DNA of 24,507 nucleotides from an uncultured Candidatus Saccharibacteria bacterium (GCA_964610675.1 CAZSWB010000001.1:1-24507); one strand, 5' to 3'. Counted from the first letter of the stretch, positions 1-15,344 are shown. Numbers and translations are program-made. The notes: a model not told the origin generated them from the sequence alone.

Positions 1-336
1 TCCATCGGAAAAGGAGATTTGCTTATTGTGGCCTCCGGTTCGGGGGAAACACAGACCATCTATGACATTGTTGCAATCGCTCATAAAAACGGTGCACGTA
101 TCGCACTCGTGACAGGAAATCTCGATTCAAAAATGGGAACACTTGCACATACAATTGTTCGCCTCTCCGCACCATCAAAAACGAAGCAGGTAGAAGGATT
201 CACATCTAGCCAACCCATGACAACTCTCAATGAGCAATGTCTGGGTATCCTATTTGAGTCAATGGTAATGATGCTTATGGCTCAAATGCGAGAAACACAT
301 GATACGATGTGGGCGAGGCATTCAAACTTAGAATAG
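1..336 (+). CDS. hxlB: SIS-domain sugar-phosphate isomerase, 6-phospho-3-hexuloisomerase (HxlB/Phi) family; 5' end lies outside the window
   Basis: Frame 1 is open from base 1 (SIGKGDLLIVASGSGET...). The GSGSGET-like loop, SQPMTTLNEQ (cf. QPMGSLFEQ) and C-terminal RHSNLE (cf. RHANLE) are HxlB signatures. The partner hxlA is not in the window. Confidence 0.85.
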   Translation, partial: SIGKGDLLIVASGSGETQTIYDIVAIAHKNGARIALVTGNLDSKMGTLAHTIVRLSAPSKTKQVEGFTSSQPMTTLNEQCLGILFESMVMMLMAQMRETHDTMWARHSNLE

Positions 337-343
337 TATACAT

Positions 344-1018
344 ATGCAACACACGCACTGTGCACTAGCGGCATCGATCATATGTGGGAATCCGTTAAAC
401 CTGAAAGCTGATCTTGCGGCATTAAAAAAAGGAAACATAGACTATATCCATTTCGACGTCATGGACGGAGTGTTTGTTCCTCGCTACGGATTATTTCCCG
501 AATATTTACGAGCGATCCGTTCTCAAACGAATATCCCCATAGAAGTGCATATGATGGTAGAAGATCCAGAGCCATATATTCAAGACTATGTTGATGCCGG
601 CGCAACCATTGTAACACCGCACATTGAACCGCTGAAGCATGCGCATCGCACCGTTATGCGCATTAAAAGCGCGGGAGTACAAGCGGGACTAGCCCTCAAC
701 CCGGGCACACCCCCCTCATCACTCAATTATATTCTTGAAGATTTAGATCTTGTCATGTTGATGGCAATTAATCCGGGCATTGTCGGGCATAAAATAATTC
801 CACGTACTATGGAAAAGATTGCCGATGTGCGAAAACGAATTAATGCGACCGGAAAGGACATATTATTGGAGATTGACGGCGGGGTAACTCCTGAGAGCGG
901 AATACAAATGGTGAATGCTGGAGCGAATATGCTTGTTTGCGGTACTGGGACTATTTTTCAACCGCCAGCAACACTTGATAAAAAGATTCGAGAGTTTCGA
1001 AAAACGCTTGTACTATGA
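344..1018 (+). CDS. Ribulose-phosphate 3-epimerase superfamily protein with an AlsE-like (hexulose-6-phosphate) phosphate-binding loop
   Basis: Metal ligand motifs HFDVMDG, VHMMV and EIDGGV, plus LALNPGTP and MAINPG. The final loop VCGTGTIF is one residue longer than RPE VAGSAIF and matches the length of AlsE IVGTSGLF. Confidence 0.9.
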   Translation: MQHTHCALAASIICGNPLNLKADLAALKKGNIDYIHFDVMDGVFVPRYGLFPEYLRAIRSQTNIPIEVHMMVEDPEPYIQDYVDAGATIVTPHIEPLKHAHRTVMRIKSAGVQAGLALNPGTPPSSLNYILEDLDLVMLMAINPGIVGHKIIPRTMEKIADVRKRINATGKDILLEIDGGVTPESGIQMVNAGANMLVCGTGTIFQPPATLDKKIREFRKTLVL

Positions 1019-1731
1019 AAAAAGGTTCTCCATACAAACTCCTTATCACCACTTCGGGAACAGGATCTCGTCTGGGAGAACTTACCAAACATACAAACAA
1101 AGCCCTGGTTCCCATAGCGGACAAACCGACTATCTCACACATTCTTGACCTGTATGACCCCTCAATACCGCTTGTAATCACCTTAGGCTATTTACCTGAG
1201 CAGGTACGTACGTTTTTCAAGGATAAATACCCTAATCGAGATGTCACTTTTGCTGTCGTTGATCCCTATGAAGGTCCGGGAAGCAGCCTGGGATATTCCC
1301 TGTTGCAGGCGGAGCAACTGCTTCAGTGTCCTTTCATTTTCCATGCGTGCGATACGATTTTAACACAAGAAGTGCCTGTCCCCGATGAAAATTGGGCTGC
1401 TGGCTATGTACCTCCACAAGGAATGGATGCTACGCAATATAGGACGCATAAGGTGCAAGATGGACGAATTATCACTTTGCGCGATAAAGGAGAGACTGAC
1501 TTCAATGCTATTCATATTGGTGTGACCGGTATTGCGTCGTATAAGGAATTCTGGAGCATATTACGTACTCTGTATGAAAGCAATCCGGAAGATTCCGGAT
1601 GGTCGGATGTGCACGTCGTAGACGCGATGATTAAACAAGGTATTCCATTTCAAAGCGTGTTGTTTGATCCATGGCTCGATACGGGTAGCCCCGAAGCACT
1701 AGCAAAACACAGGAATATATCGGGCAAATAA
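1015..1731 (+). CDS. Sugar-phosphate nucleotidyltransferase (NTP_transferase/GT-A fold), stand-alone
   Basis: ITTSGTGSRLGELTKHTNKALV is the GxGxRL...K signature; also HACD and C-terminal WLDTG. ATGA overlap with the epimerase. Confidence 0.9.
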   Translation: MKKGSPYKLLITTSGTGSRLGELTKHTNKALVPIADKPTISHILDLYDPSIPLVITLGYLPEQVRTFFKDKYPNRDVTFAVVDPYEGPGSSLGYSLLQAEQLLQCPFIFHACDTILTQEVPVPDENWAAGYVPPQGMDATQYRTHKVQDGRIITLRDKGETDFNAIHIGVTGIASYKEFWSILRTLYESNPEDSGWSDVHVVDAMIKQGIPFQSVLFDPWLDTGSPEALAKHRNISGK

Positions 1732-1733
1732 AT

Positions 1734-1822
1734 AACCCATCGAACGCCTGACAGTATTTGATGGGTCTTGAGGTATTACGAGCCTCGAAGGGTTCTGAGA
1801 AAGGCTGGCCATCCATAGCCTT
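1734..1822 (+). other. Cluster of inverted repeats in the largest intergenic region (possible structured RNA)
   Basis: Stems: 1735-1744 with 1757-1766 (10 bp, one G-U); 1767-1773 with 1783-1790 (7 bp, one bulge); 1801-1807 with 1816-1822 (7 bp, one G-U). Alternative pairing 1734-1743 with 1785-1794 (9 of 10). No U-tract. Confidence 0.35.
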
Positions 1823-1924
1823 CCCACATGCGCTTAGTCCGAACCGCAACATATGTACCAAATGTGAACAATTTAGTCAAAAGCTATTATTGTCTTTTAC
1901 TCTGCTCCGTGCAACACTTTCTCA

Positions 1925-3505
1925 ATGGCGTACAAAAAACAAAAGTTGACTGTCCTTATCACTACCTCCGGAGTTGGGAGTAAGCTCGGGGATCTCACTA
2001 CCTATACAAACAAGGCACTTGTGAAAATAGGGAAAAAACCTGCCCTTTCATACATCATAGAGTCTTATCCGAAGGACACTCATTTTGTTATCACTCTGGG
2101 ACACTTTGGCGAACATGTGAAAGAATTCGTATCTTTGGCGTACCCAAAACTATCCGTGAAGTTCGTGCCTGTTCGCAAGTTTAGCGGGACAGGAAGCAGC
2201 CTTGTGCGCTCGATGGTGTCGGCGAGGAAGTATCTTCAAAAACCGTTCATTTATCATGCTTCGGATACCATTGTTCATCAACGTATTGTTGCTCCCTCTG
2301 AGAACTGGGCCGGAGGGCACAAATCTGATACTACTTCCCAATACGCTTCATTTGATGTTTTGGACGGTACTGTGCAAGCATTCTATCCAAAAGGGAATTT
2401 GAATCCTGATTTTTTGCATATCGGCCTTGTTGGAGTTAACGATTATAAAGAGTTTTGGAAGTGTGCACAAAAGCTGCTTGTGTCGCATCCGGATCGGGAG
2501 GATTTGAGCGATGTTGACATATTGTCTGCCATGCTTGAGCGAGGGTCAAGGATTGTCCCGCAATCTTTTAGTCCTTGGTACGATGTGGGGAATGTAGACA
2601 GTTTGCATGCTACGCGACAAGCAATACATGATTCATTTCATATTCTCGATAAGCCATCAGAATCTATTTATCTTTTCGAGCGATCTGTTATTAAATTCTT
2701 TAGTGATGCCGGTATTGTGCGAGATCGCGTACGCCGCGCAAATGCTTTAGGAAAACTTGTTCCAGTAATTGAAAAATCTTCCAAACACTTTTATCGGTAT
2801 AAGTATGTAGAAGGAGATCTTCTTGCATCAGTTATTACTCCGACCACTTTTCCTCATTTTCTTAATTGGGCATTCACGAATATGTGGAAACCAGAGACAG
2901 AAGTATCTCAAGAAAAGTTTCGCGCATTTTGCTATGACTTTTATTACACAAAAACTCTACAGCGAACCAATGAATTTTTAACAACACGGAATATTAAAGA
3001 TAGAGCATCTCTAATAAATGGCGAGCATGTCCCCTCTTTATCAAAATTGCTTCAAATGGTTGATTTTCATGCGCTCGCCGATGCGAAGCAGACATCGTTC
3101 CATGGGGACTTTATCCCAGACAATATCATTAAAACTTCAAAAGGATATACATTGCTCGATTGGCGGCAGAATTTCGGCGGGCTTCTTCGTGGAGGGGACA
3201 TGTATTACGATATTGCAAAACTGAATCACAATCTCGTGATTAATCACGATATGATAAATAACAATCATTTTAGCATTGAACGCAGAGGGAATAGCGTTAC
3301 CTGTGATATTTTCCGAAGCCAACGGCTGGTAGAGTGCCAAGAGGTACTAAAACTCTATTGTATCGAACAAGGACTCGATCTTCATAAAATTGAAATACTG
3401 ACTCCAATCCTCTGGCTTAATATGTCACCCCTTCATTCCCATCCATATGACGTATTTCTGTACTATTTCGGTAAGCTTCAGCTTTGGAAAGCACTGCACC
3501 GATAA
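1925..3505 (+). CDS. Bifunctional nucleotidyltransferase plus APH/choline-kinase-like phosphotransferase
   Basis: N-terminal ITTSGVGSKLGDLTTYTNKALV...WYDVG. The C-terminal half has the Brenner motif HGDFIPDNI (3101 onward), LLDWR (3158) and GDMYYDIAKL. Confidence 0.88.
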   Translation: MAYKKQKLTVLITTSGVGSKLGDLTTYTNKALVKIGKKPALSYIIESYPKDTHFVITLGHFGEHVKEFVSLAYPKLSVKFVPVRKFSGTGSSLVRSMVSARKYLQKPFIYHASDTIVHQRIVAPSENWAGGHKSDTTSQYASFDVLDGTVQAFYPKGNLNPDFLHIGLVGVNDYKEFWKCAQKLLVSHPDREDLSDVDILSAMLERGSRIVPQSFSPWYDVGNVDSLHATRQAIHDSFHILDKPSESIYLFERSVIKFFSDAGIVRDRVRRANALGKLVPVIEKSSKHFYRYKYVEGDLLASVITPTTFPHFLNWAFTNMWKPETEVSQEKFRAFCYDFYYTKTLQRTNEFLTTRNIKDRASLINGEHVPSLSKLLQMVDFHALADAKQTSFHGDFIPDNIIKTSKGYTLLDWRQNFGGLLRGGDMYYDIAKLNHNLVINHDMINNNHFSIERRGNSVTCDIFRSQRLVECQEVLKLYCIEQGLDLHKIEILTPILWLNMSPLHSHPYDVFLYYFGKLQLWKALHR

Positions 3506-4303
3506 TTATTTCCGAGTTAGCTTAAAATTCTTTGTGAATCGTGTGGATGAATGGGTTGAAATATCCCACTCGCTTCTCATTTGAGAAAAAGCTTGCTCTA
3601 CGGTATGTGCGAGGTTGGACTTGCATCCATAATCATCAAATAGAATGTATGCCGTCGGTGCGATCAAGTTGAGTTTTGCCATTAAGTCCATTGCCTCCAG
3701 AAACGACTGAGATACATCGCAGTCGATATGGATGAAGCAGAATTGTCTTATCTCTCTTTTTCCAAGATATGAGCGAATTCCGTCAATATCATTAAATCGA
3801 TACTTACCGATATGAATATTTTTCTTCGTGACCGGATATACCTGTTTGCTTCCCATAACATTGTCTTCGCACTGTCTGTATGATGTATTCGAGAATGCGT
3901 ACTTGCGAAAAGAACCATCATCGTACGGCAGTCCTTCGAAACTATCAAGACCCACGATTCTTTTTGAGAATACTCCCTGCCTCTCAAGCAGATACGCTAT
4001 CCAGAGAAGTGAAAATCCTCGGTACGTTCCAAATTCAGCAAGGTCCCCAGGGATATTTTCGCAATCTTTAAGAATGTCTCGAAAGTTGATAAGTCGTCCA
4101 ATTTGATGTTCGAGCTCACGATCTGCGCTCAGCTTTGTTTTCTCGTAGTACGCAGATGTCAGATCTTCGGGTTTATATATCATATCAAGCCGAGAAGAGT
4201 GATTCTGGCGTTTTTCATAGCTTATTTTTCGCAAATAGAGTTTGTAAATAAGCGGGATCTTGAGGAGCGACTCTTTTATGGCAGTGATCGAATCTTTTTT
4301 CAT
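3506..4303 (-). CDS. TylF/MycF/NovP-family sugar O-methyltransferase
   Basis: GDLAEFGTYRG, GLDSFEGLP, FIHIDCD and ILFDDYG are the characteristic TylF-family motifs. Confidence 0.85.
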   Translation of the reverse strand: MKKDSITAIKESLLKIPLIYKLYLRKISYEKRQNHSSRLDMIYKPEDLTSAYYEKTKLSADRELEHQIGRLINFRDILKDCENIPGDLAEFGTYRGFSLLWIAYLLERQGVFSKRIVGLDSFEGLPYDDGSFRKYAFSNTSYRQCEDNVMGSKQVYPVTKKNIHIGKYRFNDIDGIRSYLGKREIRQFCFIHIDCDVSQSFLEAMDLMAKLNLIAPTAYILFDDYGCKSNLAHTVEQAFSQMRSEWDISTHSSTRFTKNFKLTRK

Positions 4304-4313
4304 GGGTATCGTG

Positions 4314-4790
4314 TTATAGCTGTATGGTAAAGAATTTATCTAATACATGGTAGCACGCTTCTGCGACCGCACCTTCACCGGCGCGAAGAGTTGTTACGTA
4401 GTCCGCTGAATCTTTTGCCGTTGGATATGCATTCTGGGGAGCAATTCCGTATGCGACAAGCTTGAGGATGGGGATGTCGTGGATACCATCTGCCATATAT
4501 ATTGCGGTTTTGGGATCAAACTTTTTTATGAAATAATCCATCCGATCTGATTCAGAAACGAGCGTAAGGGGAATACCCATGTCATCCTCAATGCGTTTTT
4601 TCGTAATGGCAAACCCACGGCTGTCGGCACTTATTGCGCAGACGCGAATATGTTCTCTAATTGTTTTGATTCCATCCGCATCGTGAGGGCCGAAAACTTT
4701 TGCGAATTTGCCTTGAGACGTGTATAGAAATTGTCCGGTCGTAAAGACACCATCAACATCAAACACGAAATCTGTCGGTGTGAACTTCAT
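4314..4790 (-). CDS. KdsC/YrbI-like HAD phosphatase (C0 cap), divergent
   Basis: Motif I FDVDGVFTTG, K-x-F-x3-D-x-DG, and C-terminal ADYVT...AGEGAVAE. Motif II (ISADS) and motif IV (MADGIHD) deviate from the KdsC consensus ITGR and GDDxxD. Confidence 0.82.
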   Translation of the reverse strand: MKFTPTDFVFDVDGVFTTGQFLYTSQGKFAKVFGPHDADGIKTIREHIRVCAISADSRGFAITKKRIEDDMGIPLTLVSESDRMDYFIKKFDPKTAIYMADGIHDIPILKLVAYGIAPQNAYPTAKDSADYVTTLRAGEGAVAEACYHVLDKFFTIQL

Positions 4791-5464
4791 ACGTATTTTT
4801 TGCGTTGCGCAACTACTACGAGCTCATTTGTGAATATAAGAGGCGTTATAGGCGAGCTTAATTGGACTAATTTTCCAACATTTGTGATGTGTGTTTTCTT
4901 TATCACTTGAAAACCACTCATGCGAAGCATGTACTTGATGAGTCCGAGCGTAAAAAAGGTATGATGTTTGTAAATTCCACTTCTTCGATACATCACTTCT
5001 TGATATGAAATTCCAAACAGTGTTTTCAGCCGTACCATAACAGAAACATCATTAGGGATGGTAACAAGAAGATGCCCTCCTGGCTTTACTACTCGAGATG
5101 CTTCTTTGATAACCGAAATAGGGTCAAATACATGTTCAATGATGTCACCGGCAAGAACGACATCGTATGTACCATCTGGACCGGGAATGCCATCGTCAAG
5201 GTCTACAACCTCAGCGTCCACTCCCACAGAACGAGCCTTTTCAACTGCAGTAGCTGAGAAATCAATCCCCTTTACCGCATAACCGAGCGCGGCAACCTCT
5301 TTTGTAATCATGCCGCTGCCACATCCTATGTCTAAAAGTGTTGGCGTTCCGCCATGGTTGCGCTTGATCTCCTTGAGATAGGAAAAAATGATTTCTTCCT
5401 CTCGTCGAATTTGGCAGTAGTCCTCCTTCGCGTATCGAGTGTCTTCAATGGCTGCTGGTTTCAT
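4787..5464 (-). CDS. Class I SAM-dependent methyltransferase (Methyltransf_11/23-like)
   Basis: LLDIGCGSG, GIDFS, YDVVLAGDIIEHVFDP, VKPGGHLLVTIPN. Confidence 0.9.
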   Translation of the reverse strand: MKPAAIEDTRYAKEDYCQIRREEEIIFSYLKEIKRNHGGTPTLLDIGCGSGMITKEVAALGYAVKGIDFSATAVEKARSVGVDAEVVDLDDGIPGPDGTYDVVLAGDIIEHVFDPISVIKEASRVVKPGGHLLVTIPNDVSVMVRLKTLFGISYQEVMYRRSGIYKHHTFFTLGLIKYMLRMSGFQVIKKTHITNVGKLVQLSSPITPLIFTNELVVVAQRKKYV

Positions 5465-6201
5465 AGCGGTTTTTGTATAATGAGAACATAGTTTAACGGA
5501 AGGCTTTTATAAATGAGATTGTGAAATTTTTGAATTGGCAACCACTTACTGTTGTTGCAGAGCGCATCAATGACTTCATCAGCCGTCATACCGATACAAT
5601 TGAGAATAAGATAGATCGGTGAAAAAATATATGGGATCCCAAACGATGCAAAAAAATAGTTAATCAACTGGCACAATGTGCCGATATACCCTGACGTCTC
5701 TTTAAGAGTTTTTACCTGAAAATCCTTAAATGTCACAATTAATCCAAACTTGGTAAATCTCCAAAAGTCTACATTCCATGTTGGGTGATTTACGGTGTTA
5801 AAATTTTTGTAGGGAGCATTGTTGCTTGGAAGCGGTATCGAATGGACTTTCATAGCCATGGGTACCGAAATGAAGCATTCTCCACCCGGCTTTAATAAAC
5901 GAAATATTTCATTGACGGTTCCGGAGAGCTTTTCCGTATGTTCCAGAGTTTGATTGAGTACAATCCCATCAAAGGAGGAATCTTCAAGAGGGATTGACGA
6001 GCTGTCCGCAACAATGTCACACTCGGGTGTTTTGATATGGTCAACACCGATATATGATCCCGTAAAATATTTTGCATATGGCTTGTGTCCACATCCAATA
6101 TCCAGAATTTTAGATTCCTTGTCGTACGCTCTCGCAAACGACTTCATTTCCCTGTCGACTGGAATTCTTGCAAGATAGTTACTTGATAGCAGTGACGGCA
6201 T
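5461..6201 (-). CDS. Class I SAM-dependent methyltransferase of the type common in polysaccharide loci
   Basis: ILDIGCGHKPY, YIGVD, FDGIVLNQTLEH, LKPGG and DFWRFT. Confidence 0.88.
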   Translation of the reverse strand: MPSLLSSNYLARIPVDREMKSFARAYDKESKILDIGCGHKPYAKYFTGSYIGVDHIKTPECDIVADSSSIPLEDSSFDGIVLNQTLEHTEKLSGTVNEIFRLLKPGGECFISVPMAMKVHSIPLPSNNAPYKNFNTVNHPTWNVDFWRFTKFGLIVTFKDFQVKTLKETSGYIGTLCQLINYFFASFGIPYIFSPIYLILNCIGMTADEVIDALCNNSKWLPIQKFHNLIYKSLPLNYVLIIQKPL

Positions 6202-7183
6202 GGAAGACTTCTACATATTGGCGAATCATTGGCTCTATTCGAAAGCGCTCCTCGGCTATTTCTCGACTATTTAGCCTGTAGGAGGGTTGGTTGTTCATAA
6301 TCTTATATATATTATCAGCGAATGCAGTTAAATCAAGTTGTCGTTTTTCATAAAAAGCATGGCCGTGTGCGGGTATAAGTTCACTATTTACACCCGGTTT
6401 TGTGATCTCTGTCATTGCTCCGTCCGCTACTCCGCAAATGGGGAGTCCGCACGCCATGGCTTCAATAATGGTATTCGGACACGGAGGGTTCTGGTGGGTG
6501 TATAAAAAGACGTGCGCCGATTGAAGGTGCCGGGAAAGCCTATCGTTGCTAATCACCTGATGGAATCGAAGATAAGGTACATCTTTGTATGTTTGCGGAA
6601 TGTGGGCGATAGACTGACTGAAGTCTCCTACAATATCACAATAGAAGTTTTTGGTATATGTTTTCGCATATATATCGAGGGCCTTGATGATTGGAATAAT
6701 TTGGTCTTCTCTGCGGAAGCGGGAAACCGTCACAAACACTTGAGTATCTGGAGTGGTTTTCCAGGCTGATGGAATAAACCTGCTCGTGTCTACACCGTTA
6801 TAGACAATGCGCCACCGAGTGTCATTTCTCTTTCCTAAAAAAATATCACAGCAATATTTTGAGTATTTGCTTTGATATACGGTATAGGTTGAAAAATAGC
6901 GATGAATAATTTTTGCAGGGAGATTGTATAGATAGTAGAGTTTCCCGGCAACCGTGCTTGGGTAGTACGTTCCGTCTAGGCGATGGATGATTGGCTTATT
7001 ATGGATTTTTGCATGGATGAGGTATCTGAGCGGACACGATACAAGTACCAGCAAGACATCATAATCCGGTGAGAATGAAAAGCTTACGGTGTCTTTGTTG
7101 CCGTTCAAGCCTGCCTGCAGTTTTTTTGCGAACGTGGATGTTCCTCCTGTCGCACGCATCTTGATTGGGAGAAAGACCTTCAT
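6179..7183 (-). CDS. Glycosyltransferase family 4 with non-canonical P-X7-E motif
   Basis: N-terminal GG loop (ATGGTSTF), IVYNGVDT, NPPCPNTIIEAMACGLPI. Confidence 0.88.
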   Translation of the reverse strand: MKVFLPIKMRATGGTSTFAKKLQAGLNGNKDTVSFSFSPDYDVLLVLVSCPLRYLIHAKIHNKPIIHRLDGTYYPSTVAGKLYYLYNLPAKIIHRYFSTYTVYQSKYSKYCCDIFLGKRNDTRWRIVYNGVDTSRFIPSAWKTTPDTQVFVTVSRFRREDQIIPIIKALDIYAKTYTKNFYCDIVGDFSQSIAHIPQTYKDVPYLRFHQVISNDRLSRHLQSAHVFLYTHQNPPCPNTIIEAMACGLPICGVADGAMTEITKPGVNSELIPAHGHAFYEKRQLDLTAFADNIYKIMNNQPSYRLNSREIAEERFRIEPMIRQYVEVFHAVTAIK

Positions 7184-7986
7184 GTGCGGAAGAAGCTATT
7201 TTTTATGGATGTTGGAAATACCATTATGGCGATCGGTTCAAGGAGGAATAAGTAGTTCCATACAGGAGCGTGATACATGCGGATATATTTGATTCTTGTG
7301 CGAATTCCTTGCCTCATTTGTTCTTTACTGTGTGTTGACGAAATAGTATCCGTGGTATTGCGAGAACATAAAACGCGAGGAATATTATACATCTTAGTGT
7401 GTGGGAGTAATCGGAACCATAGGTCGCGGTCTTGCCCATACGTAACGTTCGCGTCATAACCACCGACTTGCTCTACGATGTCCTTGCGGAATATAACACA
7501 GCTATGTCCGAATGGGTTTTGTCGAAATATAGTTTTCTTGATTCGATTGTCGGTTTCCGGGAGCCGAAATACTCTCTTTGAATTGCGGTACGTATTTTCA
7601 TACCAGCACCCGACAATCCCGTATTCAGGATGCAGGCGAAGGTATTCGACTTGCATTGCAAGTTTTCCAGCGGCCCACGTGTCATCAATATCGATACGCG
7701 CGATGAGGGGAAATGATGTTTCATTCAGTCCGATACCAAGCGATTTTGTAAGGCCAATATTTATCCGATTACGGATTATTTTCATTGGAATCTCACTTAT
7801 GCGTTGCCATTGCAGTAGCTCTTCGTACGTGGCATCCGTTGAACCGTCGTCGACGCACACGATTTCTGATGGTTTGTAAGTTTGAGCGGCAATACTCTGC
7901 ATGCATTTTTGAATATGCGCGTGTCCGTTATACACAGCAACGAGAACGGAAACCTCAGCCTTTATTTCGGAAGTACTTGAATCCAT
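7180..7986 (-). CDS. Glycosyltransferase family 2 (GT-A)
   Basis: VSVLVAVYNG, VDDGSTD, NIGLTKSL, ARIDIDD (DxD), GGYD and QDRDLWFR. Confidence 0.92.
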   Translation of the reverse strand: MDSSTSEIKAEVSVLVAVYNGHAHIQKCMQSIAAQTYKPSEIVCVDDGSTDATYEELLQWQRISEIPMKIIRNRINIGLTKSLGIGLNETSFPLIARIDIDDTWAAGKLAMQVEYLRLHPEYGIVGCWYENTYRNSKRVFRLPETDNRIKKTIFRQNPFGHSCVIFRKDIVEQVGGYDANVTYGQDRDLWFRLLPHTKMYNIPRVLCSRNTTDTISSTHSKEQMRQGIRTRIKYIRMYHAPVWNYLFLLEPIAIMVFPTSIKNSFFRT

Positions 7987-8927
7987 TTTTCAATGATATT
8001 GGAAATATGAAATTGGTGCGAACGCTCCCAATTTTTAGCGCCGAATTGCTTCCGCTTGAGTTGACTTTTGATCAATTGATCAATGTAATGAGTAAATTCG
8101 TCAGGATTAGTTGCAATCATATTATCATCTCCCAATATCTCTCCAAATGCCCCGTGTCTGTTCGCTACTATCGGGAGACCGCAGGCCAGTGCGTCTAGAA
8201 TAGCGTTTGGCATATTGTCCAGAACTGACCAGTATACAAATATATCTAATGATGCCAGCTTGCTCACAATATCCTTTTGGTGTCCATGAAATACTATTTT
8301 ATACTTAAAATCCTTCTTGTGCTTTTGAGTAAACTCTCGGATCTTTTCGAGATATGTTCCATCACCATAAATATGAAATTCCAAGGATTCTATTGAATCT
8401 AATTTTTGAATGGCATACATGATTGTAATACTTCCTTCGGCCTTTTGTAGAAAGTCAAAACTCATGCTTGTGCCGATTTTAAGCGGATGGATCGATTCCC
8501 GAACTGGAGTATAATTCGGCAATTTCTCTATCGCATTTGGTATTACATGTGCGCATGTGAGCTTAAGCTGTATTTTTAAAAAATCTGAAGGAACTACAAT
8601 ATGTTTTGAACAGTAAATGCCGTATGGATACAGAAGTGCTAGGGGATTGCGCAATGAGAATTCTTCTCGGTAATCGCCACGAACATTGAGAATAAAGCGG
8701 TCCCTGTTGGGAATCCATAAGAATGGAATACCTGAAACAATGATATCCGTCCTGTTAAAATGAAGTCGTATCCAATGAAACAAACCACTTACGTGATATG
8801 TCGTGTACCCGTGCTCATGCAGTGTCTTTGCAAGTAGCGCATGTTGTTTATACGGCCCTCCTGATCGGGGAGAGAGGAAATACACTACTCTGTTCGTATC
8901 CCGGCTTTGTCCAGATGTACTTTCCAT
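7962..8927 (-). CDS. Glycosyltransferase family 4 with non-canonical D-X7-D motif
   Basis: RSGGP, VVPSDFLK, VIPNAI, IYGDG, LDNMPNAILDALACGLPIV. Confidence 0.85.
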   Translation of the reverse strand: MESTSGQSRDTNRVVYFLSPRSGGPYKQHALLAKTLHEHGYTTYHVSGLFHWIRLHFNRTDIIVSGIPFLWIPNRDRFILNVRGDYREEFSLRNPLALLYPYGIYCSKHIVVPSDFLKIQLKLTCAHVIPNAIEKLPNYTPVRESIHPLKIGTSMSFDFLQKAEGSITIMYAIQKLDSIESLEFHIYGDGTYLEKIREFTQKHKKDFKYKIVFHGHQKDIVSKLASLDIFVYWSVLDNMPNAILDALACGLPIVANRHGAFGEILGDDNMIATNPDEFTHYIDQLIKSQLKRKQFGAKNWERSHQFHISNIIEKWIQVLPK

Positions 8928-11131
8928 ATGAATACGTTTTCATTATCGGAATAGACTTTTTCAAAAATCTCGGGATTTTTATCAATCCCAGGGAATTCAC
9001 TCTCTTGACGGTCACCAGTAAAGCTGGACTTATATGGTCGAGATATGTAGGGATTGCGAGGATGCGTGTGTGCATAATACAGGTAGATTGGAGTCGAGGC
9101 ATATTCTTTTGGAATTTTCTGCTCTTTAATGGCAATGTCCGTATCATTTTTGGAAGGTGCTATTGAGGTTGAACACTCAAGAGCAACTTTTTGTTGGATG
9201 TAAGAAAGGTAACCGGGGTCGCATATACTCACGTTATCGTAGCTGGTATTTGATGACGCAGCATTGTCGGAGGTGCTTTTTTCAGTTCCCTCCGTTGCTT
9301 TTGCAGATATATTTAAAGAATTTACAGGTTTATCTGGATTTAGTTGGAAATTCAGCAGCGTGACTAGATGCTTTACAATTAGATTGCTATCTGCGGTTGC
9401 AAAGTACTCTGGTTCAATATGTATTCTATTGGATTGCGTGTGAAAACGCAGCAGGTTTTTTGATGATGCTGAAAAAATAATGCGATTCTTCGGCAAGTTA
9501 TTGATAATCCATTGTGCTGCCTGCTCTTCATATTCAGGAGTGGTAAATCGTCCCAAGTATGATACATATCCCGCCCCGAAAATGTTAATCGCAATCGATG
9601 CTGCAAGGACGATCATGATACCTCTTCTAAAATATGGAAATGCAAATTGATCAATATATTTGAGAAGTCCGAGAAGGGGGAATAGGAGGATAACGCCCAA
9701 AATCTGCCATGCCCGGTCAGGGAGATATGCTACGTTGCTCGTTCGCGGTGCAACCTCCGCAATAATAAAAAAGAAAACGATCAGCAGGAGCGGAATAATT
9801 GATCCAATGGTACGAATATTTTTTGTGATAAATGCTCGAAACTTACTGCTCGCAAGAACACCGACGATGTATGCCAGTATAATTGCAAGTGATAATGCGC
9901 CAGCATAGAATGCGTAATATTTCATTACTCCGGTTGCACCTGCCCATCCCACCGGATTTTGGTCAATATTTACATACTGTGCCGGAAACTGCCAATTTTG
10001 ATTTCCTTGTATGAATCGAGCAATCAGCTTATTTCCCAAAAATCTGATGCTTTCAACTATCCTACCGAGGCCGAGTTTTTCAACCCATGGAATAAGCAGG
10101 AAGAGAAAGATGAGTCCTTGGATTTTGTGATTCCACAGTATTTTCCGATACAGTATACCCATACACAGTATCCACGGTATGACTACCATCAGAAAAAGCG
10201 GATGGTAGAGGCTTCCTACTAGCGCGCTTATTCCAATTGCATACATGATCAGTCTGTCTTTTGTTGCGGCGTATGCCGCGCACAACCCCACTACGAAATA
10301 CATATATAGTAATGCCATCAGTTGCTGACGCACTATTTCGAACTCAAATATGATTACCGGTGAAGTAAGCGCTGCTCCAAGGAAAATATATAGCAACGGT
10401 CTTCGTAGAGTTCTTCCCGCAAGATAGAGTGGAGGTATGGTAAGTAATGAGAGAAACGGAAAGACATACTTGGAAATTGCATAAAAACTTGCTGATGACA
10501 GGTAGTGAAAAGCTGTAATAAAAACGGTATAAAGTGTTCTATCGCCATCATCAATTACGTACAAATTTCTTGCGGAAATGACCTCTTCGAATTTGATGAG
10601 CCAAGAGTAGGGATCAAGAACAGCTAAAAAGGGATATCTTGTAACGTTAAAAATATGTACTGCAAATACGAGCAGTAACCCCACGGTTACCGGATGGAGA
10701 AGAATGGTGCGATAAGGAAATGCGAGTGGTAATTCTTGAGTGGGGACATCCACAATTATTCGAGAAAAATATTGAACAGCTTTTTTCCAAAGGAGTGGAA
10801 TCAACGTAATGCTTACGTAGAAAAAAAGAGGTATCCATTGGTTGATATATCCAAATACCGTATAAACTCCCAACAGGATTGCCGGTACGAAAAATAACGA
10901 AGCGAGAATACTAAGAGCAATATAGAGGGGGATACTTAACGTCCTTTTTTGCAGCTTTTGTACCAGGTACATAATGTTTGCACCCGAAAGAAAGAACATA
11001 TGAATACTCGTAATAATCGTGCCAAGTAGCACAATTGCGATGTGGCTCGATCTAAGTCCTATGAGAAAAATTATTACAAGGAGAATGCTAGCGTAAGCAT
11101 TGGTTTTTATGAGCTGTTTTTCAAGTGTCAT
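8885..11131 (-). CDS. Large polytopic membrane protein (748 aa), putative GT-C-fold glycosyltransferase with a soluble C-terminal domain
   Basis: About 13 or more hydrophobic segments, an acidic loop motif LDPYSW, and a C-terminal domain starting EEQAAQWIINNLP. No WWDYG motif. Confidence 0.55.
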   Translation of the reverse strand: MTLEKQLIKTNAYASILLVIIFLIGLRSSHIAIVLLGTIITSIHMFFLSGANIMYLVQKLQKRTLSIPLYIALSILASLFFVPAILLGVYTVFGYINQWIPLFFYVSITLIPLLWKKAVQYFSRIIVDVPTQELPLAFPYRTILLHPVTVGLLLVFAVHIFNVTRYPFLAVLDPYSWLIKFEEVISARNLYVIDDGDRTLYTVFITAFHYLSSASFYAISKYVFPFLSLLTIPPLYLAGRTLRRPLLYIFLGAALTSPVIIFEFEIVRQQLMALLYMYFVVGLCAAYAATKDRLIMYAIGISALVGSLYHPLFLMVVIPWILCMGILYRKILWNHKIQGLIFLFLLIPWVEKLGLGRIVESIRFLGNKLIARFIQGNQNWQFPAQYVNIDQNPVGWAGATGVMKYYAFYAGALSLAIILAYIVGVLASSKFRAFITKNIRTIGSIIPLLLIVFFFIIAEVAPRTSNVAYLPDRAWQILGVILLFPLLGLLKYIDQFAFPYFRRGIMIVLAASIAINIFGAGYVSYLGRFTTPEYEEQAAQWIINNLPKNRIIFSASSKNLLRFHTQSNRIHIEPEYFATADSNLIVKHLVTLLNFQLNPDKPVNSLNISAKATEGTEKSTSDNAASSNTSYDNVSICDPGYLSYIQQKVALECSTSIAPSKNDTDIAIKEQKIPKEYASTPIYLYYAHTHPRNPYISRPYKSSFTGDRQESEFPGIDKNPEIFEKVYSDNENVFIWKVHLDKAGIRTE

Positions 11132-13331: not shown

Positions 13332-15344
13332 ATGAAACGGGTATATAGGGAGCATATCATTGCGCTTCTGGCTTTTGTTTTACTTACTGTAGTTATGACT
13401 TTTCCGGTTGCTTTCCGGATGCAAGAAGATATTGCGGGTTCGGGTGGAGATCCATGGCAGTCGATGTGGCGTTTTGAAGAAAAAGCAGAATCCGGCTTCA
13501 GCGGGTTTGTAACTGACGTGCTCGGCAGAGGAGAGCCGCGGCTTGCAAACCTATCCGTGTGGCCTTGGATGCCGCTTCATCTTCTTTTCGGCCAGCCGTT
13601 CACGTATAACTTGGTGTGGCTCCTACATTTTATTCTTGCGGGATACGCAATGGCATTGCTGGTGAAGATTCTTACGGTTGGCAAAAGTATTTTAGAACCT
13701 GCTCCGCTCTTGGCGGGCCTTATGTATATGCTCATTCCATATCATGTTGCTCACAGCTTGGGTCATTTTGGAGCCATGCAATTGCAATGGATTCCTTTTA
13801 TCGCGATTGCAGCTCTATCGTTGTTCCGATCCCCCAGTATTTGGCGTGCCAGTGTTCTCGGCATATTGCTTTCCATTCAGGCGTGGACGGAGCACCACTA
13901 CATAGTGTGGATTGCGCTCTTTGGTCTTATCGCCGGATTTGTGTATAGGAATGAAGTGAAACAAAAACTGAGTTTGCTCGTTCCTTCCCTCGGTATCTTG
14001 TCGCTCATCCTTATAATCGGAATTCTCTTTCCCTTTATCCCCACAATTCGCCTTGCGGCGACGCAAAGCAGCGCGTTGGAACTGGGAATGACGCAGACGA
14101 TTCGGTTCTCCGCGGATCTTTTCTCTTTCATTACTCCGCCATCCACTCATCCGATTTGGGGTGACGCATCAGATTCGCTTTTTGGAAAATACTTTACGGG
14201 AAACAAATCGGAAAGCGTGCAGTATCTTGGAATCAGCGTTGTAATCGCCATCTTGTTTTTTCATCGCCATATTCCGCAAAAACAAAAAAGGCTTTGGTTT
14301 GCAACCATACTCTTTTTTGGAATCATGAGCTTGGGACCCGTGTTGCATGTGTTTGGAAGGGAAACGGACATCCCTTTGCCGTACGCGATCGTCGCGAACG
14401 CTCCGGTGTTCTCGGCAATTCGCGTGATTGCGCGTGCGGGAGTAATGGTGAGCTTCGCGGCAGCCGTGTTGTTCGGCTGGGTGATCGCCACCAACCCGCC
14501 GGATCGTCGTGCTACTTTTCGTTTCGTGCCGTATCTCATTGGCGGCATCATTCTGTTGGAGTTTATGTTCTTTGTGTTTCCGATGCAATCCGCAAAACTC
14601 TCACCGATCTATGCCGCAATAGAAGGTATCCCCGGTTCTCACATTCTCGAGCTGCCAGCGGCTACGAACTACACTGCCGCGTCGCGTTCCTTGTATGCGA
14701 GCAGGATTCATGGGAAAGAAGTGCTGGGCAATATTGCGCTCGAGAGAGGACAGAGCGCAGAAGCGTATGACATCGTACGATCCTTTCCCGCACTTCGACA
14801 GCTTCTTTTTCTTCGAACGACGGACTTGAGTGAAATGCGTACGGAGTTTTTTTCACAAGATTTGATAGAAACGTTGCCTGACGTGATGAAATACCTTAAC
14901 ACCTATGCGATTATCATTCACACCGATTCATTGTCGGATGTTCAAAATACGGCCGTGCGTGAGTTCCTGGAGAGAGATACAGGATTTGTAAGTACGTCGT
15001 ATGAGGATGCCGTGCTGGTTACGTTGGACCCACAGAATACGTCGCGTACCGATGGCGTGTTTCTTGTTCGCAAAAATGGATGGGAACATGTGTGTCGCGA
15101 TAAACAGGTAAACAGCGTGTTTGCGGAAGTCTCATCGCATGCGAGCGTTTCGGTTATAAACACGAATTCGTATCCGGTCGCAATCGAGCTTCAGTACGAA
15201 TTAACTCCGGAGTCACAAGGAGAGCTGTTGGCGGAAACACGCGTTGTGGTTCAACCGGGGGAGCATGAAGTTGTGTTCACTCATACCGGAGAAGGAACAT
15301 CGATCATCAAAAACCCTGAAATGCACGTTACCCCGGTTCTATGA
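13332..15344 (+). CDS. Polytopic membrane protein (670 aa), YfhO-like putative GT-C glycosyltransferase
   Basis: GGDPWQSMW acidic loop, IPYHVAHSLGHFGAMQLQWIPF, FSADLFSF and IRVIAR, about 12 hydrophobic segments, then a soluble C-terminal domain. Confidence 0.6.
   Translation: MKRVYREHIIALLAFVLLTVVMTFPVAFRMQEDIAGSGGDPWQSMWRFEEKAESGFSGFVTDVLGRGEPRLANLSVWPWMPLHLLFGQPFTYNLVWLLHFILAGYAMALLVKILTVGKSILEPAPLLAGLMYMLIPYHVAHSLGHFGAMQLQWIPFIAIAALSLFRSPSIWRASVLGILLSIQAWTEHHYIVWIALFGLIAGFVYRNEVKQKLSLLVPSLGILSLILIIGILFPFIPTIRLAATQSSALELGMTQTIRFSADLFSFITPPSTHPIWGDASDSLFGKYFTGNKSESVQYLGISVVIAILFFHRHIPQKQKRLWFATILFFGIMSLGPVLHVFGRETDIPLPYAIVANAPVFSAIRVIARAGVMVSFAAAVLFGWVIATNPPDRRATFRFVPYLIGGIILLEFMFFVFPMQSAKLSPIYAAIEGIPGSHILELPAATNYTAASRSLYASRIHGKEVLGNIALERGQSAEAYDIVRSFPALRQLLFLRTTDLSEMRTEFFSQDLIETLPDVMKYLNTYAIIIHTDSLSDVQNTAVREFLERDTGFVSTSYEDAVLVTLDPQNTSRTDGVFLVRKNGWEHVCRDKQVNSVFAEVSSHASVSVINTNSYPVAIELQYELTPESQGELLAETRVVVQPGEHEVVFTHTGEGTSIIKNPEMHVTPVL

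What the first reader, a model, noticed from the sequence alone, without database searches (positions are those of the whole stretch)
1..4790. Candidate undescribed pathway for a nucleotide-activated rare hexose/hexulose (isomerase + 3-epimerase + kinase + nucleotidyltransferase + HAD phosphatase)
Seen in sequence: five activities cluster at the head of a glycosyltransferase locus, namely a HxlB-like isomerase, an AlsE-like 3-epimerase, a nucleotidyltransferase, a nucleotidyltransferase-kinase fusion and a KdsC-like phosphatase. Established: HxlB and AlsE both interconvert fructose-6-P with other hexulose-6-phosphates, and isomerase-kinase-phosphatase-nucleotidyltransferase is the logic of the GmhA-HddA-GmhB-HddC GDP-heptose route. 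Inference: these housekeeping-type folds are repurposed here to make a glycan donor. Model A is fructose-6-P to allulose(psicose)-6-P or a 3-hexulose-6-P, then anomeric phosphorylation, NMP transfer and removal of the 6-phosphate, giving an NDP-ketose. Model B reverses D-allose catabolism (allulose-6-P to allose-6-P to allose-1,6-bisP to allose-1-P to NDP-allose). No standard NDP-sugar genes (rml, gmd, neu, kds, gmh) are in the window. I do not recognise this combination as a characterised pathway.
Basis: partly seen in the sequence, partly recalled or inferred. Interest (0 to 1): 0.85.

Follow-up and report, generated by a model that had tools for sequence, protein, structure and literature searches.

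The report
Conserved cassette for unknown activated sugar
The five genes are real. They belong to a widespread, never-characterised cassette that most likely turns a common sugar phosphate into a nucleotide-activated rare sugar for the cell surface of a tiny uncultured bacterium. The closest studied relative is a recently described phage pathway, and the exact sugar is still unknown.

Summary
The window starts a contig of a ~0.86 Mb Patescibacteria (Andersenbacteria-like) genome. It encodes, in order:
- an HxlB-type SIS isomerase, cut at its 5' end by the contig edge
- an RPE-family epimerase
- a nucleotidyltransferase (NT1)
- a nucleotidyltransferase/APH-fold kinase fusion (NTK)
- on the other strand, a TylF-like methyltransferase and a KdsC-like HAD phosphatase, followed by methyltransferases and glycosyltransferases

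The SIS-RPE-NTK-HAD core is strongly conserved. A scan of species-representative genomes found 305 NTK relatives. Of the 80 best loci, 47 carry an RPE next to the NTK (a SIS matched in 45 of them), and 61 carry the HAD. No hxlA was found upstream in relatives or in this genome. The cassette epimerase is an extra copy; the housekeeping RPE sits next to transketolase elsewhere.

NTK is a remote homologue of phage NT-kinase enzymes (AfhE type). With a HAD phosphatase and a SIS isomerase, these make UDP-D-arabinose through a sugar bisphosphate.

- All 45 cassette epimerases surveyed have the one-residue-longer, AlsE-like phosphate loop.
- In 26 loci SIS+RPE is replaced by a GatZ-like hexulose-6-P 4-epimerase plus a PMI-like cupin. 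The two front ends swapped at least 9 times on the NTK tree.

The product remains unproven. Earlier agents of this scan found the same cassette on other DNA.

The parts
1..336 (+). 3' part (111 codons) of an HxlB-type SIS sugar-phosphate isomerase, cut by the contig end
   Evidence: PF01380 and TIGR03127 hits. Full-length orthologues score 188-195 bits against a cut-off of 160. Closest solved structures are B. subtilis YckF/HxlB and an HPS-PHI fusion. It is the only SIS-domain gene found in the genome.
344..1018 (+). Cassette-specific RPE-family ketose-phosphate 3-epimerase with an AlsE-length phosphate loop (G-T-G-T-I-F)
   Evidence: PF00834 205 bits; TIGR01163 210.7 against 212.6; AlsE model 158 against 271. 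Loop alignment. Orthologues occur only in genomes that have NTK.
1015..1731 (+). Stand-alone nucleotidyltransferase NT1. It is 41-42% identical to the NT domain of NTK and is an optional member of the cassette.
   Evidence: The GxGS(R/K)L motif and the catalytic Lys/Asp are kept. NT1 is absent from G012 and from many other loci. It is fused to SIS in L075.
1925..3505 (+). NTK: N-terminal sugar-1-P nucleotidyltransferase domain (~1-240) fused to a C-terminal APH/choline-kinase-fold kinase domain (~245-526)
   Evidence: Invariant HGDxxxxN and DWR motifs. AF2 model with pLDDT 92.5. Fold matches: LicC Z 23.8, LicA Z 14.4, APH(4) Z 14.3. The family profile hits phage NT-kinase proteins.
3506..4303 (-). 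TylF-family (sugar) O-methyltransferase, convergent with NTK
   Evidence: PF05711 E 1.8e-13. TylF-like genes recur next to the cassette. One homologue is an NTK-TylF fusion of 778 aa (P0082).
4314..4790 (-). KdsC-like HAD-IIIA phosphatase, proposed to remove the terminal phosphate
   Evidence: TIGR01670 62 bits, below cut-off. The best solved relatives are KdsC structures. DVDG motif present. Found in 61 of 80 loci, usually directly after NTK.
4787..6201 (-). Two class I SAM methyltransferases (4787-5464 and 5461-6201), probably modifying the glycan or its sugar
   Evidence: Pfam Methyltransf_11/23. Syntenic in G011.
6179..8927 (-). Three glycosyltransferases (GT4-like 6179-7183, GT2 7180-7986, GT4-like 7962-8927) in the same minus-strand gene string as the HAD; candidate users of the donor
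   Evidence: Pfam hits. Syntenic in G011.

Best explanation
The genes form a dedicated pathway that makes a nucleotide-activated rare aldohexose for the adjacent glycosyltransferases, starting from fructose-6-phosphate. Proposed steps:
1. The RPE-like enzyme epimerises C3 of fructose-6-P to give allulose(psicose)-6-P.
2. The HxlB-type SIS enzyme isomerises this ketose to an aldose-6-P, either D-allose-6-P or D-altrose-6-P.
3. The APH-fold kinase domain of NTK phosphorylates the anomeric C1 hydroxyl, giving a hexose-1,6-bisphosphate.
4. The KdsC-like HAD removes the 6-phosphate.
5. The nucleotidyltransferase domain of NTK, with NT1 as an optional second copy, couples the hexose-1-P to an NTP.
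6. TylF-like and other methyltransferases O-methylate the sugar before or after transfer.

What is shown: the gene content, the domain architecture, intact catalytic motifs, conserved linkage, the accessory status of the epimerase and isomerase, and remote homology of NTK to phage bifunctional kinase/pyrophosphorylases.

What is inferred: every substrate, the order of kinase and phosphatase, the nucleotide used, and the product.
For: Dedicated cassette:
- The SIS-RPE-(NT1)-NTK-HAD order is conserved in congeners, Moranbacteria and Microgenomates, and in 47 of 80 GTDB loci from many phyla.
- SIS and the cassette RPE occur only in relatives that have NTK.
- The housekeeping RPE is a different, divergent gene beside transketolase.
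- The cassette is flanked by a Wzx flippase, methyltransferases and glycosyltransferases.

Bisphosphate mechanism:
- The NTK family profile matches phage NT-kinase proteins over their full length: Enterococcus phage 9183 ORF047 at E 5e-28, Synechococcus phage S-SRM01 at E 4e-19, and the RB69 gp52 kinase at E 3e-6. In those phages the gene sits next to a HAD, and in S-SRM01 and RB69 also next to a SIS gene.
- The phage enzymes AfhE and AfhF are reported to phosphorylate arabinose-5-P at C1, remove the 5-phosphate and form UDP-arabinose (PMC13326640).

Hexose rather than pentose:
- All 45 cassette epimerases surveyed have a six-residue G-[TSN]-x-x-[IV]-[FY] loop after strand 8. This matches E. 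coli AlsE (G-T-S-G-L-F). It is one residue longer than E. coli Rpe and than four of the five solved RPEs shown.
- In 26 of 80 loci SIS+RPE is replaced by a GatZ-like protein plus a PMI-like cupin. The AF2 model of the GatZ-like protein has pLDDT 89.6, its best fold matches are GatZ 2fiq and 3txv at TM 0.72-0.77, and the family profile hits only those two PDB entries.
- GatZ and KbaZ epimerise fructose-6-P to tagatose-6-P (PMC11907403).
- On a maximum-likelihood NTK tree the two front ends change at least 9 times, and none of 200 bootstrap trees shows a single origin. This suggests the back end takes the same class of substrate from both.
- The phage pentose systems use a KpsF-type SIS and no epimerase.
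Against: - Overall the epimerase is closer to canonical RPEs than to AlsE (173 against 115 bits to solved structures). It nearly passes the rpe equivalog model.
- The SIS enzyme passes the HxlB model. HxlB's known reaction is a 2-keto/3-keto shift, not an aldose-ketose isomerisation.
- The only biochemically characterised relatives of NTK act on a pentose phosphate.
- The significance of the loop length rests on my recollection of Chan et al. 2008 (Biochemistry 47:9608). I could not retrieve that paper.
- If the two front ends have the roles I assign, they would yield different stereoisomers (allo/altro against talo/galacto). Interchangeability therefore requires a stereo-tolerant kinase and phosphatase.
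- No glycan composition is known for any host.
- I found no literature on an NDP-allose or NDP-altrose route of this kind.
Confidence: 0.45

Rival explanations
1. Pentose version, a cellular counterpart of the phage UDP-D-arabinose route. The extra RPE converts xylulose-5-P to ribulose-5-P. The SIS enzyme makes arabinose-5-P (or ribose-5-P). NTK forms the 1,5-bisphosphate, HAD removes the 5-phosphate, and the NT domain makes an NDP-pentofuranose.
For: - The architecture is the same as AfhE/AfhF plus a SIS isomerase, and NTK is a remote homologue of the phage enzymes.
- The epimerase is closest overall to true RPEs.
- From chemistry: the HxlB substrate 3-hexulose-6-P has the same carbonyl-to-phosphate spacing as ribulose-5-P, and the stereochemistry of the HxlB product corresponds to arabinose-5-P.
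- An earlier agent of this scan reached this reading (e1-1136279).
Against: - The AlsE-length phosphate loop is present in all 45 cassette epimerases surveyed.
- The SIS enzyme is not KpsF/GutQ-type, unlike the phage isomerases.
- The genome already has a housekeeping RPE.
- The alternative front end is a GatZ-like enzyme, a family known only on six-carbon ketoses, and it swaps freely with SIS+RPE.
Confidence: 0.2
2. The epimerase makes allulose-6-P. NTK phosphorylates the anomeric C2 hydroxyl of the ketofuranose, as PFK-2 does with fructose-6-P. HAD removes the 6-phosphate and the NT domain forms NDP-allulose. The SIS enzyme only feeds or balances the fructose-6-P pool.
For: - The KdsC family acts on 2-keto sugars with a terminal phosphate.
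- No PGI-family gene and no other SIS gene were found in this genome, so the SIS enzyme could have a supply role.
- HxlB-type enzymes are ketose-ketose isomerases.
Against: - SIS is strictly accessory and travels with the cassette.
- In free-living bacteria such as Marinomonas, which I assume from general knowledge (not tested here) have complete central metabolism, the alternative cassette still carries its own dedicated isomerase. That implies the isomerase acts on the rare ketose.
- The NT domain is of the aldose-1-P type: RmlA, GalU, MurU, LicC and HddC folds.
Confidence: 0.1
3. A different chain length or origin. For example, a heptose from sedoheptulose-7-P, giving a 3-epimeric glycero-heptose as a variant of the GmhA/HddA/GmhB/HddC route. 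Another unanticipated sugar phosphate is also possible.
For: - The logic is identical to the nucleotide-heptose pathways.
- A GT9 (heptosyltransferase-family) gene lies in the window, and no GmhA was found in the genome.
Against: - GT9 is present in all 30 relatives of the same family and order that were searched, whether or not they have the cassette. It is therefore not linked to it.
- The SIS enzyme matches GmhA models only at E ~1e-4.
- GatZ-type enzymes are known only on hexuloses.
Confidence: 0.08
4. Not a sugar at all: a LicA/LicC-like fusion that activates choline or another amino alcohol, with SIS, RPE and HAD being ordinary metabolic neighbours.
For: The best structural matches of the two NTK domains are pneumococcal LicC (Z 23.8) and LicA (Z 14.4). 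Some database sources name homologues 'choline kinase'.
Against: - The phage AfhE-type enzymes give the same LicC and choline-kinase-like structural hits, yet they are sugar-phosphate kinases/pyrophosphorylases (PMC13326640).
- NTK is tightly and widely linked to two alternative pairs of sugar-phosphate enzymes and to a sugar-phosphate phosphatase.
- SIS and the cassette RPE are not housekeeping genes here.
Confidence: 0.03

Closest known systems
Phage AfhE/AfhF route to UDP-D-arabinose for arabinosyl-5-hydroxycytosine DNA (HY126 AfhE and AfhF; RB69 gp53:52, gp51, gp55; DLP3 gp81-83), as described in PMC13326640
   Same: - One polypeptide carries an N-terminal NDP-sugar pyrophosphorylase and a C-terminal APH-like kinase, accompanied by a HAD phosphatase and a SIS isomerase.
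- The route goes through a sugar bisphosphate.
- The window's NTK family is a remote homologue (profile E 3e-6 to 5e-28).
- Both give the same LicC and choline-kinase-like structural neighbours.
   Different: - The phage isomerase is KpsF/GutQ-type; here it is HxlB-type.
- The phage HAD is a small (113-128 aa) GmhB/PNKP-like protein with no detectable similarity to this KdsC-like HAD.
- The phages have no epimerase.
- The acceptor in phages is DNA; here it is a surface glycan (flippase, glycosyltransferases).
- The substrate here is probably a hexose.
Nucleotide-heptose pathways (GmhA, HddA or HldE, GmhB, HddC)
   Same: The order is ketose-phosphate isomerase, anomeric kinase, terminal phosphatase, nucleotidyltransferase. 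In HldE the kinase and transferase are also fused.
   Different: - The kinase here has the APH fold, not GHMP or PfkB.
- The phosphatase is KdsC-like, not GmhB.
- The isomerase is HxlB-like, not GmhA.
- There is an additional 3-epimerase.
- The domain order (NT then kinase) is opposite to HldE.
E. coli D-allose catabolism (AlsE allulose-6-P 3-epimerase, RpiB/AlsB allose-6-P isomerase, AlsK)
   Same: The proposed first two steps are this pathway run in reverse. The epimerase shares AlsE's longer phosphate loop.
   Different: - The epimerase fails the AlsE model (158 against 271 bits) and is closer to RPEs.
- The isomerase is a SIS protein, not RpiB.
- The purpose is anabolic.
RuMP pathway pair HxlA/HxlB
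   Same: Orthologues of the SIS gene pass the HxlB model.
   Different: No HxlA was found in the genome or beside the gene in relatives. The gene is accessory and embedded in glycan loci.
AmgK/MurU and LicA/LicC two-step activation (APH-fold kinase plus small nucleotidyltransferase)
   Same: Same two folds, and the same kinase-then-transferase logic.
   Different: Those act on a free sugar or on choline and need no isomerase, epimerase or phosphatase. Here the two are fused, and they are fixed to sugar-phosphate enzymes.

Membership tests
Phage AfhE-type bifunctional sugar-phosphate 1-kinase / NDP-sugar pyrophosphorylase | N-terminal nucleotidyltransferase plus C-terminal APH-like kinase in one protein, with intact catalytic motifs | tested here: met
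   GxGS(R/K)L plus Lys; HGDxxxxN plus DWR; two-domain model with pLDDT 92.5.
Phage AfhE-type bifunctional sugar-phosphate 1-kinase / NDP-sugar pyrophosphorylase | Sequence homology to the phage enzymes | tested here: met
   Profile A1 against phage proteins: Ef phage 9183 ORF047 E 5e-28 over the full length; S-SRM01 E 4e-19; RB69 gp52 E 3e-6; RB69 gp53 only E 0.02. The relationship is remote; pairwise BLAST gives E 6e-4. HY126 AfhE itself was not available to compare.
Phage AfhE-type bifunctional sugar-phosphate 1-kinase / NDP-sugar pyrophosphorylase | Activity on D-arabinose-5-P and UTP | not testable with these tools
   This needs enzyme assays. Context (AlsE-like loop, GatZ-like alternative front end) argues for a hexose instead.
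Phage UDP-arabinose cassette | KpsF/GutQ-type arabinose-5-P isomerase partner | tested here: not met
   The window-type SIS scores 188-195 on HxlB and only ~19-23 on kpsF. RB69 gp55 and the S-SRM01 SIS score ~112 on kpsF.
Phage UDP-arabinose cassette | Small GmhB/PNKP-like HAD phosphatase (AfhF type) | tested here: not met
   No similarity to RB69 gp51. The closest relatives are KdsC structures.
6-phospho-3-hexuloisomerase (HxlB, RuMP pathway) | Score above the TIGR03127 cut-off | tested here: met
   Orthologues score 188-195 bits against 160. The window's own copy is truncated and scores 108 bits.
6-phospho-3-hexuloisomerase (HxlB, RuMP pathway) | Partner 3-hexulose-6-P synthase (HxlA) in the genome or adjacent | tested here: not met
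   No TIGR03128 match in the 96%-complete genome. The upstream genes in relatives are a flippase or other genes.
Ribulose-phosphate 3-epimerase (housekeeping RPE) | Passes the rpe models | tested here: inconclusive
   TIGR01163 210.7 against 212.6 (just below). Subfamily NF004076 186 against 165 (above). One orthologue scores 213.8.
Ribulose-phosphate 3-epimerase (housekeeping RPE) | Is the lineage's conserved pentose-phosphate-pathway copy | tested here: not met
   It is present only in cassette-bearing congeners. Another RPE paralogue was detected in 32 of the 40 relatives searched, and in the own genome it lies next to transketolase.
D-allulose-6-phosphate 3-epimerase (AlsE) | Passes NF007266 | tested here: not met
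   158 bits against a cut-off of 271.
D-allulose-6-phosphate 3-epimerase (AlsE) | One-residue-longer loop after strand 8 that lengthens the phosphate site (recalled from Chan et al. 2008, not retrieved) | tested here: met
   G-T-G-T-I-F against AlsE G-T-S-G-L-F and Rpe G-S-A-I-F. Seen in 45 of 45 cassette epimerases. There is a one-residue gap against four of the five solved RPEs shown.
KdsC (KDO-8-P phosphatase) | Passes the KdsC models; kdsA/kdsB context | tested here: not met
   TIGR01670 62 against 107; NF007019 58 against 208. No kds genes in the window.
Nucleotide-heptose pathway | GmhA-type isomerase, GHMP or PfkB kinase, GmhB phosphatase | tested here: not met
   GmhA models match only at E ~1e-4, and no GmhA was found in the genome. 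The kinase has the APH fold. The HAD is KdsC-like.
LicA/LicC choline activation | Structural likeness of both domains | tested here: met
   LicC Z 23.8; LicA Z 14.4.
LicA/LicC choline activation | Choline as substrate | not testable with these tools
   Linkage to sugar-phosphate enzymes argues against it.

The most novel reading that the evidence does not exclude
One conserved back end (NT/APH-kinase fusion plus KdsC-like phosphatase) is fed by two unrelated front ends that have been swapped repeatedly. One front end is an RPE-like 3-epimerase with an HxlB-like isomerase. The other is a GatZ-like 4-epimerase with a PMI-like cupin. Together they would form a modular 'bisphosphate route' that makes a series of NDP-activated rare aldohexoses (allo/altro and talo/galacto series) directly from fructose-6-phosphate. 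It would supply surface glycans in Patescibacteria, DPANN archaea and many ordinary bacteria, and it is evolutionarily related to the phage UDP-arabinose pathway.
Probability: 0.4. Interest if true: 0.8.

Novelty: new variant of a known kind. Interest (0 to 1): 0.62.

Why it matters
Nucleotide sugars are the currency of glycan synthesis, and almost all known routes to rare hexoses work at the NDP-sugar level. A route that builds the rare configuration at the sugar-phosphate level and then activates it through a bisphosphate is known only for heptoses and, since 2025-2026, for phage arabinose.

This cassette has at least 305 relatives among species-representative genomes. It is especially common in Patescibacteria, whose surfaces are chemically unknown and probably mediate attachment to host cells. 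Identifying the product would assign function to four very common "hypothetical" or misnamed genes. These are currently annotated as 6-phospho-3-hexuloisomerase, ribulose-phosphate 3-epimerase, choline kinase or dTDP-glucose pyrophosphorylase, and KdsC. It would also give enzymes for making rare NDP-hexoses.

Cultured carriers of the sister cassette (Marinomonas colpomeniae, Campylobacter concisus) make the question experimentally tractable.

Tried and rejected
- Upstream hxlA. The window begins at the contig end, so I read the upstream region in three congeners and two other phyla. It holds a flippase or unrelated genes. The genome-wide HxlA search was negative.
- Housekeeping RPE. Rejected: another paralogue next to transketolase fills that role.
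- Direct similarity to RB69. tblastn of NTK against 50,697 phage records did not reach RB69. Pairwise BLAST was weak. Only the family profile linked them.
- PDB sequence search with NTK gave nothing useful.
- Fold searches of the whole NTK model were dominated by the NT domain. The kinase domain appeared only at ranks 42-44.
- GT9 as a clue for a heptose donor. Rejected: GT9 is universal in the family and order regardless of the cassette.
- A single product common to both front ends. I worked through C3/C4 epimer and isomer combinations for C5, C6 and C7 ketose phosphates and found none that converge from central metabolites. A PHI plus RPE-on-3-ketose scheme giving tagatose-6-P fits the chemistry but conflicts with the AlsE-length loop.
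- Literature. I found no paper on this cellular cassette, nor on NDP-allose or NDP-altrose made from hexose phosphates. He et al. (the AfhE/AfhF primary paper) and Chan et al. 2008 could not be retrieved.

Full report
**What is in the sequence.** The window is the first 24.5 kb of contig C1 of an 859-kb, 164-contig genome estimated 96% complete. Names attached to the closest homologues place it in Patescibacteria, Candidatus Andersenbacteria.

The plus strand carries four genes:
- The last 111 codons of a SIS-domain isomerase (1-336), cut by the contig end.
- An RPE-family epimerase (344-1018).
- A 238-aa nucleotidyltransferase, NT1 (1015-1731).
- After a 193-bp gap, a 526-aa fusion of a nucleotidyltransferase and an APH-fold kinase, NTK (1925-3505).

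A minus-strand gene string converges on NTK. It ends with a KdsC-like HAD phosphatase (4314-4790) and a TylF-like methyltransferase (3506-4303). Upstream of these lie two methyltransferases and several glycosyltransferases. The rest of the window holds more GT4 and GT2 enzymes, DUF2304, a GT9, and three large proteins with no Pfam match. The only addition is the TylF-like gene between NTK and HAD.

**Are the genes intact and of the stated kinds?**
- SIS: full-length orthologues score 188-195 bits on the HxlB model (cut-off 160). Their closest solved relatives are B. subtilis YckF/HxlB and an HPS-PHI fusion.
- Epimerase: 205 bits on PF00834. It just misses the rpe equivalog (210.7 against 212.6), passes an RPE subfamily model, and fails the AlsE model (158 against 271).
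- NT1 and the NT domain of NTK both keep the GxGS(R/K)L loop and the catalytic Lys and Asp.
- The kinase domain keeps the invariant HGDxxxxN and DWR motifs across 45 homologues.
- The HAD has the DVDG nucleophile motif, and its nearest solved relatives are KdsC enzymes.
- An AlphaFold model of NTK (pLDDT 92.5) shows two domains. The first resembles LicC, RmlA, GalU, MurU and HddC (Z 20-24). The second resembles choline kinase LicA and APH(4) (Z about 14).

**Is the linkage real?** Yes.
- Among 40 relatives, NTK orthologues above 50% identity occur in three other species of the same genus, and a degraded copy lies at a contig edge in a fourth.
- The SIS gene and the cassette-type epimerase (81-85% identical) occur in exactly those genomes and nowhere else in the sample. 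The exception is the SIS gene at the degraded copy, where the contig edge cuts the locus.
- Most relatives carry a different, divergent RPE paralogue of about 30% identity. In the own genome it lies immediately upstream of transketolase, so it is the housekeeping enzyme.
- In the congeners the order SIS-RPE-(NT1)-NTK-HAD is kept.
- The gene upstream of SIS is a Wzx-like flippase in two congeners and an unrelated divergent gene in the third, not hxlA. No HxlA was found in the genome.
- The same order (flippase, SIS, RPE, NTK, HAD, methyltransferases, glycosyltransferases) appears in Moranbacteria and Microgenomates contigs.
- A scan of one genome per GTDB species found 305 stretches encoding NTK relatives. 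Of the 80 best loci, 61 have the HAD and 48 an RPE. Forty-eight have a ~378-aa methyltransferase with a C-methyltransferase-type C-terminal domain. Most of the remainder are cut by contig ends.
- Carriers include many Patescibacteria classes, DPANN archaea, Bacteroidota, Verrucomicrobiota and Chlamydiota MAGs.
- Three fusions reinforce the functional link. One is NT1-SIS in an Uhrbacteria locus. SIS also occurs with an unidentified N-terminal domain in three further loci. The third is an NTK-TylF fusion of 778 aa.

**What is already known.**
- A 2026 paper (PMC13326640) describes the phage route to UDP-D-arabinose, which is used to arabinosylate 5-hydroxycytosine in DNA.
- In that route a SIS arabinose-5-P isomerase feeds AfhE, a single protein with an N-terminal pyrophosphorylase and a C-terminal APH-like kinase.
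- The paper reports AfhE as both the arabinose-5-P 1-kinase and the UDP-arabinose pyrophosphorylase. AfhF, a HAD phosphatase, removes the 5-phosphate of the bisphosphate.
- The RB69 genes gp55, gp53:52 and gp51 have this layout.
- A profile of the window's NTK family matches phage proteins of this architecture:
  - Enterococcus phage 9183 ORF047, full length, E 5e-28. It lies beside a HAD in a thymidylate-synthase-like cluster.
  - Synechococcus phage S-SRM01 NDP-sugar synthase, E 4e-19. It lies between a SIS gene and a HAD in a glycan cluster.
  - RB69 gp52, E 3e-6.
- The cellular cassette differs in three ways. Its SIS is HxlB-type, whereas the phage ones are KpsF/GutQ-type. Its HAD is KdsC-like and unrelated to RB69 gp51. 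It always carries an epimerase, which the phages lack.
- I found no paper on the cellular cassette.

**Pentose or hexose?** Two lines of evidence favour a hexose.

The first is the loop after strand 8 of the epimerase.
- The window's loop reads G-T-G-T-I-F. E. coli AlsE has G-T-S-G-L-F and E. coli Rpe has G-S-A-I-F.
- All 45 cassette epimerases surveyed have the six-residue form.
- HMMER alignments to four of the five solved canonical RPEs shown place a one-residue gap there.
- As I recall Chan et al. 2008, this extra residue lengthens the phosphate site of AlsE for a hexulose-6-P. I could not retrieve the paper to check.

The second is an alternative front end.
- In 26 of the 80 loci, SIS and RPE are replaced by a ~330-390-aa protein and a ~115-aa cupin. 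These loci include the cultured Marinomonas colpomeniae and Campylobacter concisus, and also several Patescibacteria.
- The larger protein is a remote member of the GatZ/KbaZ family. Its family profile hits only 2fiq and 3txv in the PDB. Its model (pLDDT 89.6) matches those two at TM 0.72-0.77, clearly above class II aldolases. Language-model features point the same way.
- GatZ and KbaZ epimerise fructose-6-P to tagatose-6-P (PMC11907403).
- The cupin matches the isomerase domain of type II phosphomannose isomerases.
- This gives two parallel designs feeding the same NTK, HAD and methyltransferase. One pairs a ketose-phosphate 3-epimerase with a SIS isomerase. The other pairs a ketose-phosphate 4-epimerase with a cupin isomerase.
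- On a maximum-likelihood NTK tree (80 rows, LG+G4, 1000 ultrafast bootstraps) the front-end type changes at least 9 times. Well-supported branches force 7-10 changes, and none of 200 bootstrap trees shows a single origin.
- The back end therefore seems to accept the same class of substrate from both front ends, and the GatZ family is known only on six-carbon ketoses.
- Free-living bacteria, which I assume have their own PGI and PMI, still carry a dedicated isomerase in the cassette. That isomerase most plausibly acts on the rare ketose phosphate, giving an aldose.

**Counter-evidence.**
- The epimerase is closer overall to true RPEs than to AlsE.
- HxlB's known reaction is not an aldose-ketose isomerisation.
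- The only assayed relatives of NTK use a pentose phosphate.
- With the roles I assign, the two front ends give different stereoisomers. Their free exchange therefore requires a tolerant kinase and phosphatase.
- For these reasons I give the hexose route 0.45, the pentose (arabinose-like) route 0.2, an NDP-ketose 0.1, another sugar such as a heptose 0.08, and a non-sugar substrate 0.03.
- The order kinase-then-phosphatase is taken from the phage and heptose precedents. Phosphatase-then-kinase (free-sugar activation, as with KdsC followed by direct activation, or AmgK/MurU) would give the same product and is not excluded.

**Side checks.**
- The GT9 gene at 22328-23434 is not evidence for a heptose donor. 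GT9 occurs in all 30 relatives of the same family and order, with or without the cassette.
- The genome shows no GmhA, no PGI-family gene, and no SIS gene other than the cassette's.

**Relation to earlier work in this scan.**
- Earlier agents met the same cassette on other genomes and reached the same general verdict: a conserved, uncharacterised route to an activated sugar. One of them favoured a pentose on the AfhE analogy.
- New here are four things: the accessory status of the epimerase and isomerase within one genus, the universality of the AlsE-length loop, the GatZ-like/cupin alternative front end, and its repeated exchange.

**Verdict.** This is a real, conserved cassette for an unidentified nucleotide sugar. 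It is a new variant of the bisphosphate route known from heptoses and from phage arabinose, and its product is unresolved but most likely a rare aldohexose.

Noticed in passing
window 22328-23434 (-): A GT9 (heptosyltransferase-family) gene. Its Pfam match stops at profile position 204, whereas relatives reach about 229-243. GT9 is present in all 30 relatives of the same family and order, yet no GmhA was found in this genome, so its donor sugar is unclear.
   Followed up: partly
own genome C21:2353-3855: The divergent housekeeping RPE paralogue lies directly upstream of transketolase. The transketolase match contains one in-frame TGA. This could be a split gene, a sequencing error or recoding.
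   Followed up: no
own genome (whole): No PGI-family gene (PF00342) was found, and no SIS-domain gene other than the cassette's, so no recognisable GlmS either. The genome is estimated 96% complete.
   Followed up: no
L096 3966-8704 (Campylobacter concisus); L091 3903-7569 (Marinomonas colpomeniae): A sister cassette in cultured bacteria: HAD, GatZ-like protein, PMI-like cupin, NTK. In C. concisus a ~380-aa methyltransferase follows; in M. colpomeniae an ABC-transporter-like gene follows instead. In seven other loci a 275-aa protein with no Pfam match sits between the GatZ-like gene and the cupin.
   Followed up: partly
L075 835-2091; L065 2144-3898; L067 1-1365; L079 3834-5282: SIS fusions. 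In L075 the N-terminal part is an NT1-like nucleotidyltransferase. In the other three, an N-terminal domain of 250-400 aa of unknown type precedes SIS.
   Followed up: partly
L021 4622-6597 (Enterococcus phage 9183): A HAD plus an NT-kinase homologue, directly after genes annotated thymidylate kinase, thymidylate synthase and dUTPase. The layout resembles the phage DNA-glycosylation clusters, suggesting an undescribed sugar modification of this phage's DNA.
   Followed up: no
L022 4352-6764 (Synechococcus phage S-SRM01): A KpsF-type SIS, an NT-kinase homologue and a small HAD sit inside a cluster with GDP-mannose dehydratase, fucose synthase and several glycosyltransferases. This is an AfhE-like module in a glycan context rather than a DNA context.
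   Followed up: no
phage-collection record MH319741.1, 16025-17545: A record named 'Marine virus AG-345-E15' (a single amplified genome) encodes a full-length NTK that is 43% identical. It may be cellular DNA or a virus carrying the cassette.
   Followed up: no
window 8885-11131 (-), 13332-15344 (+), 18724-20982 (-): Three 670-752-aa proteins with no Pfam match, interspersed with the glycosyltransferases. One has a 54%-identical counterpart in G011.
   Followed up: no
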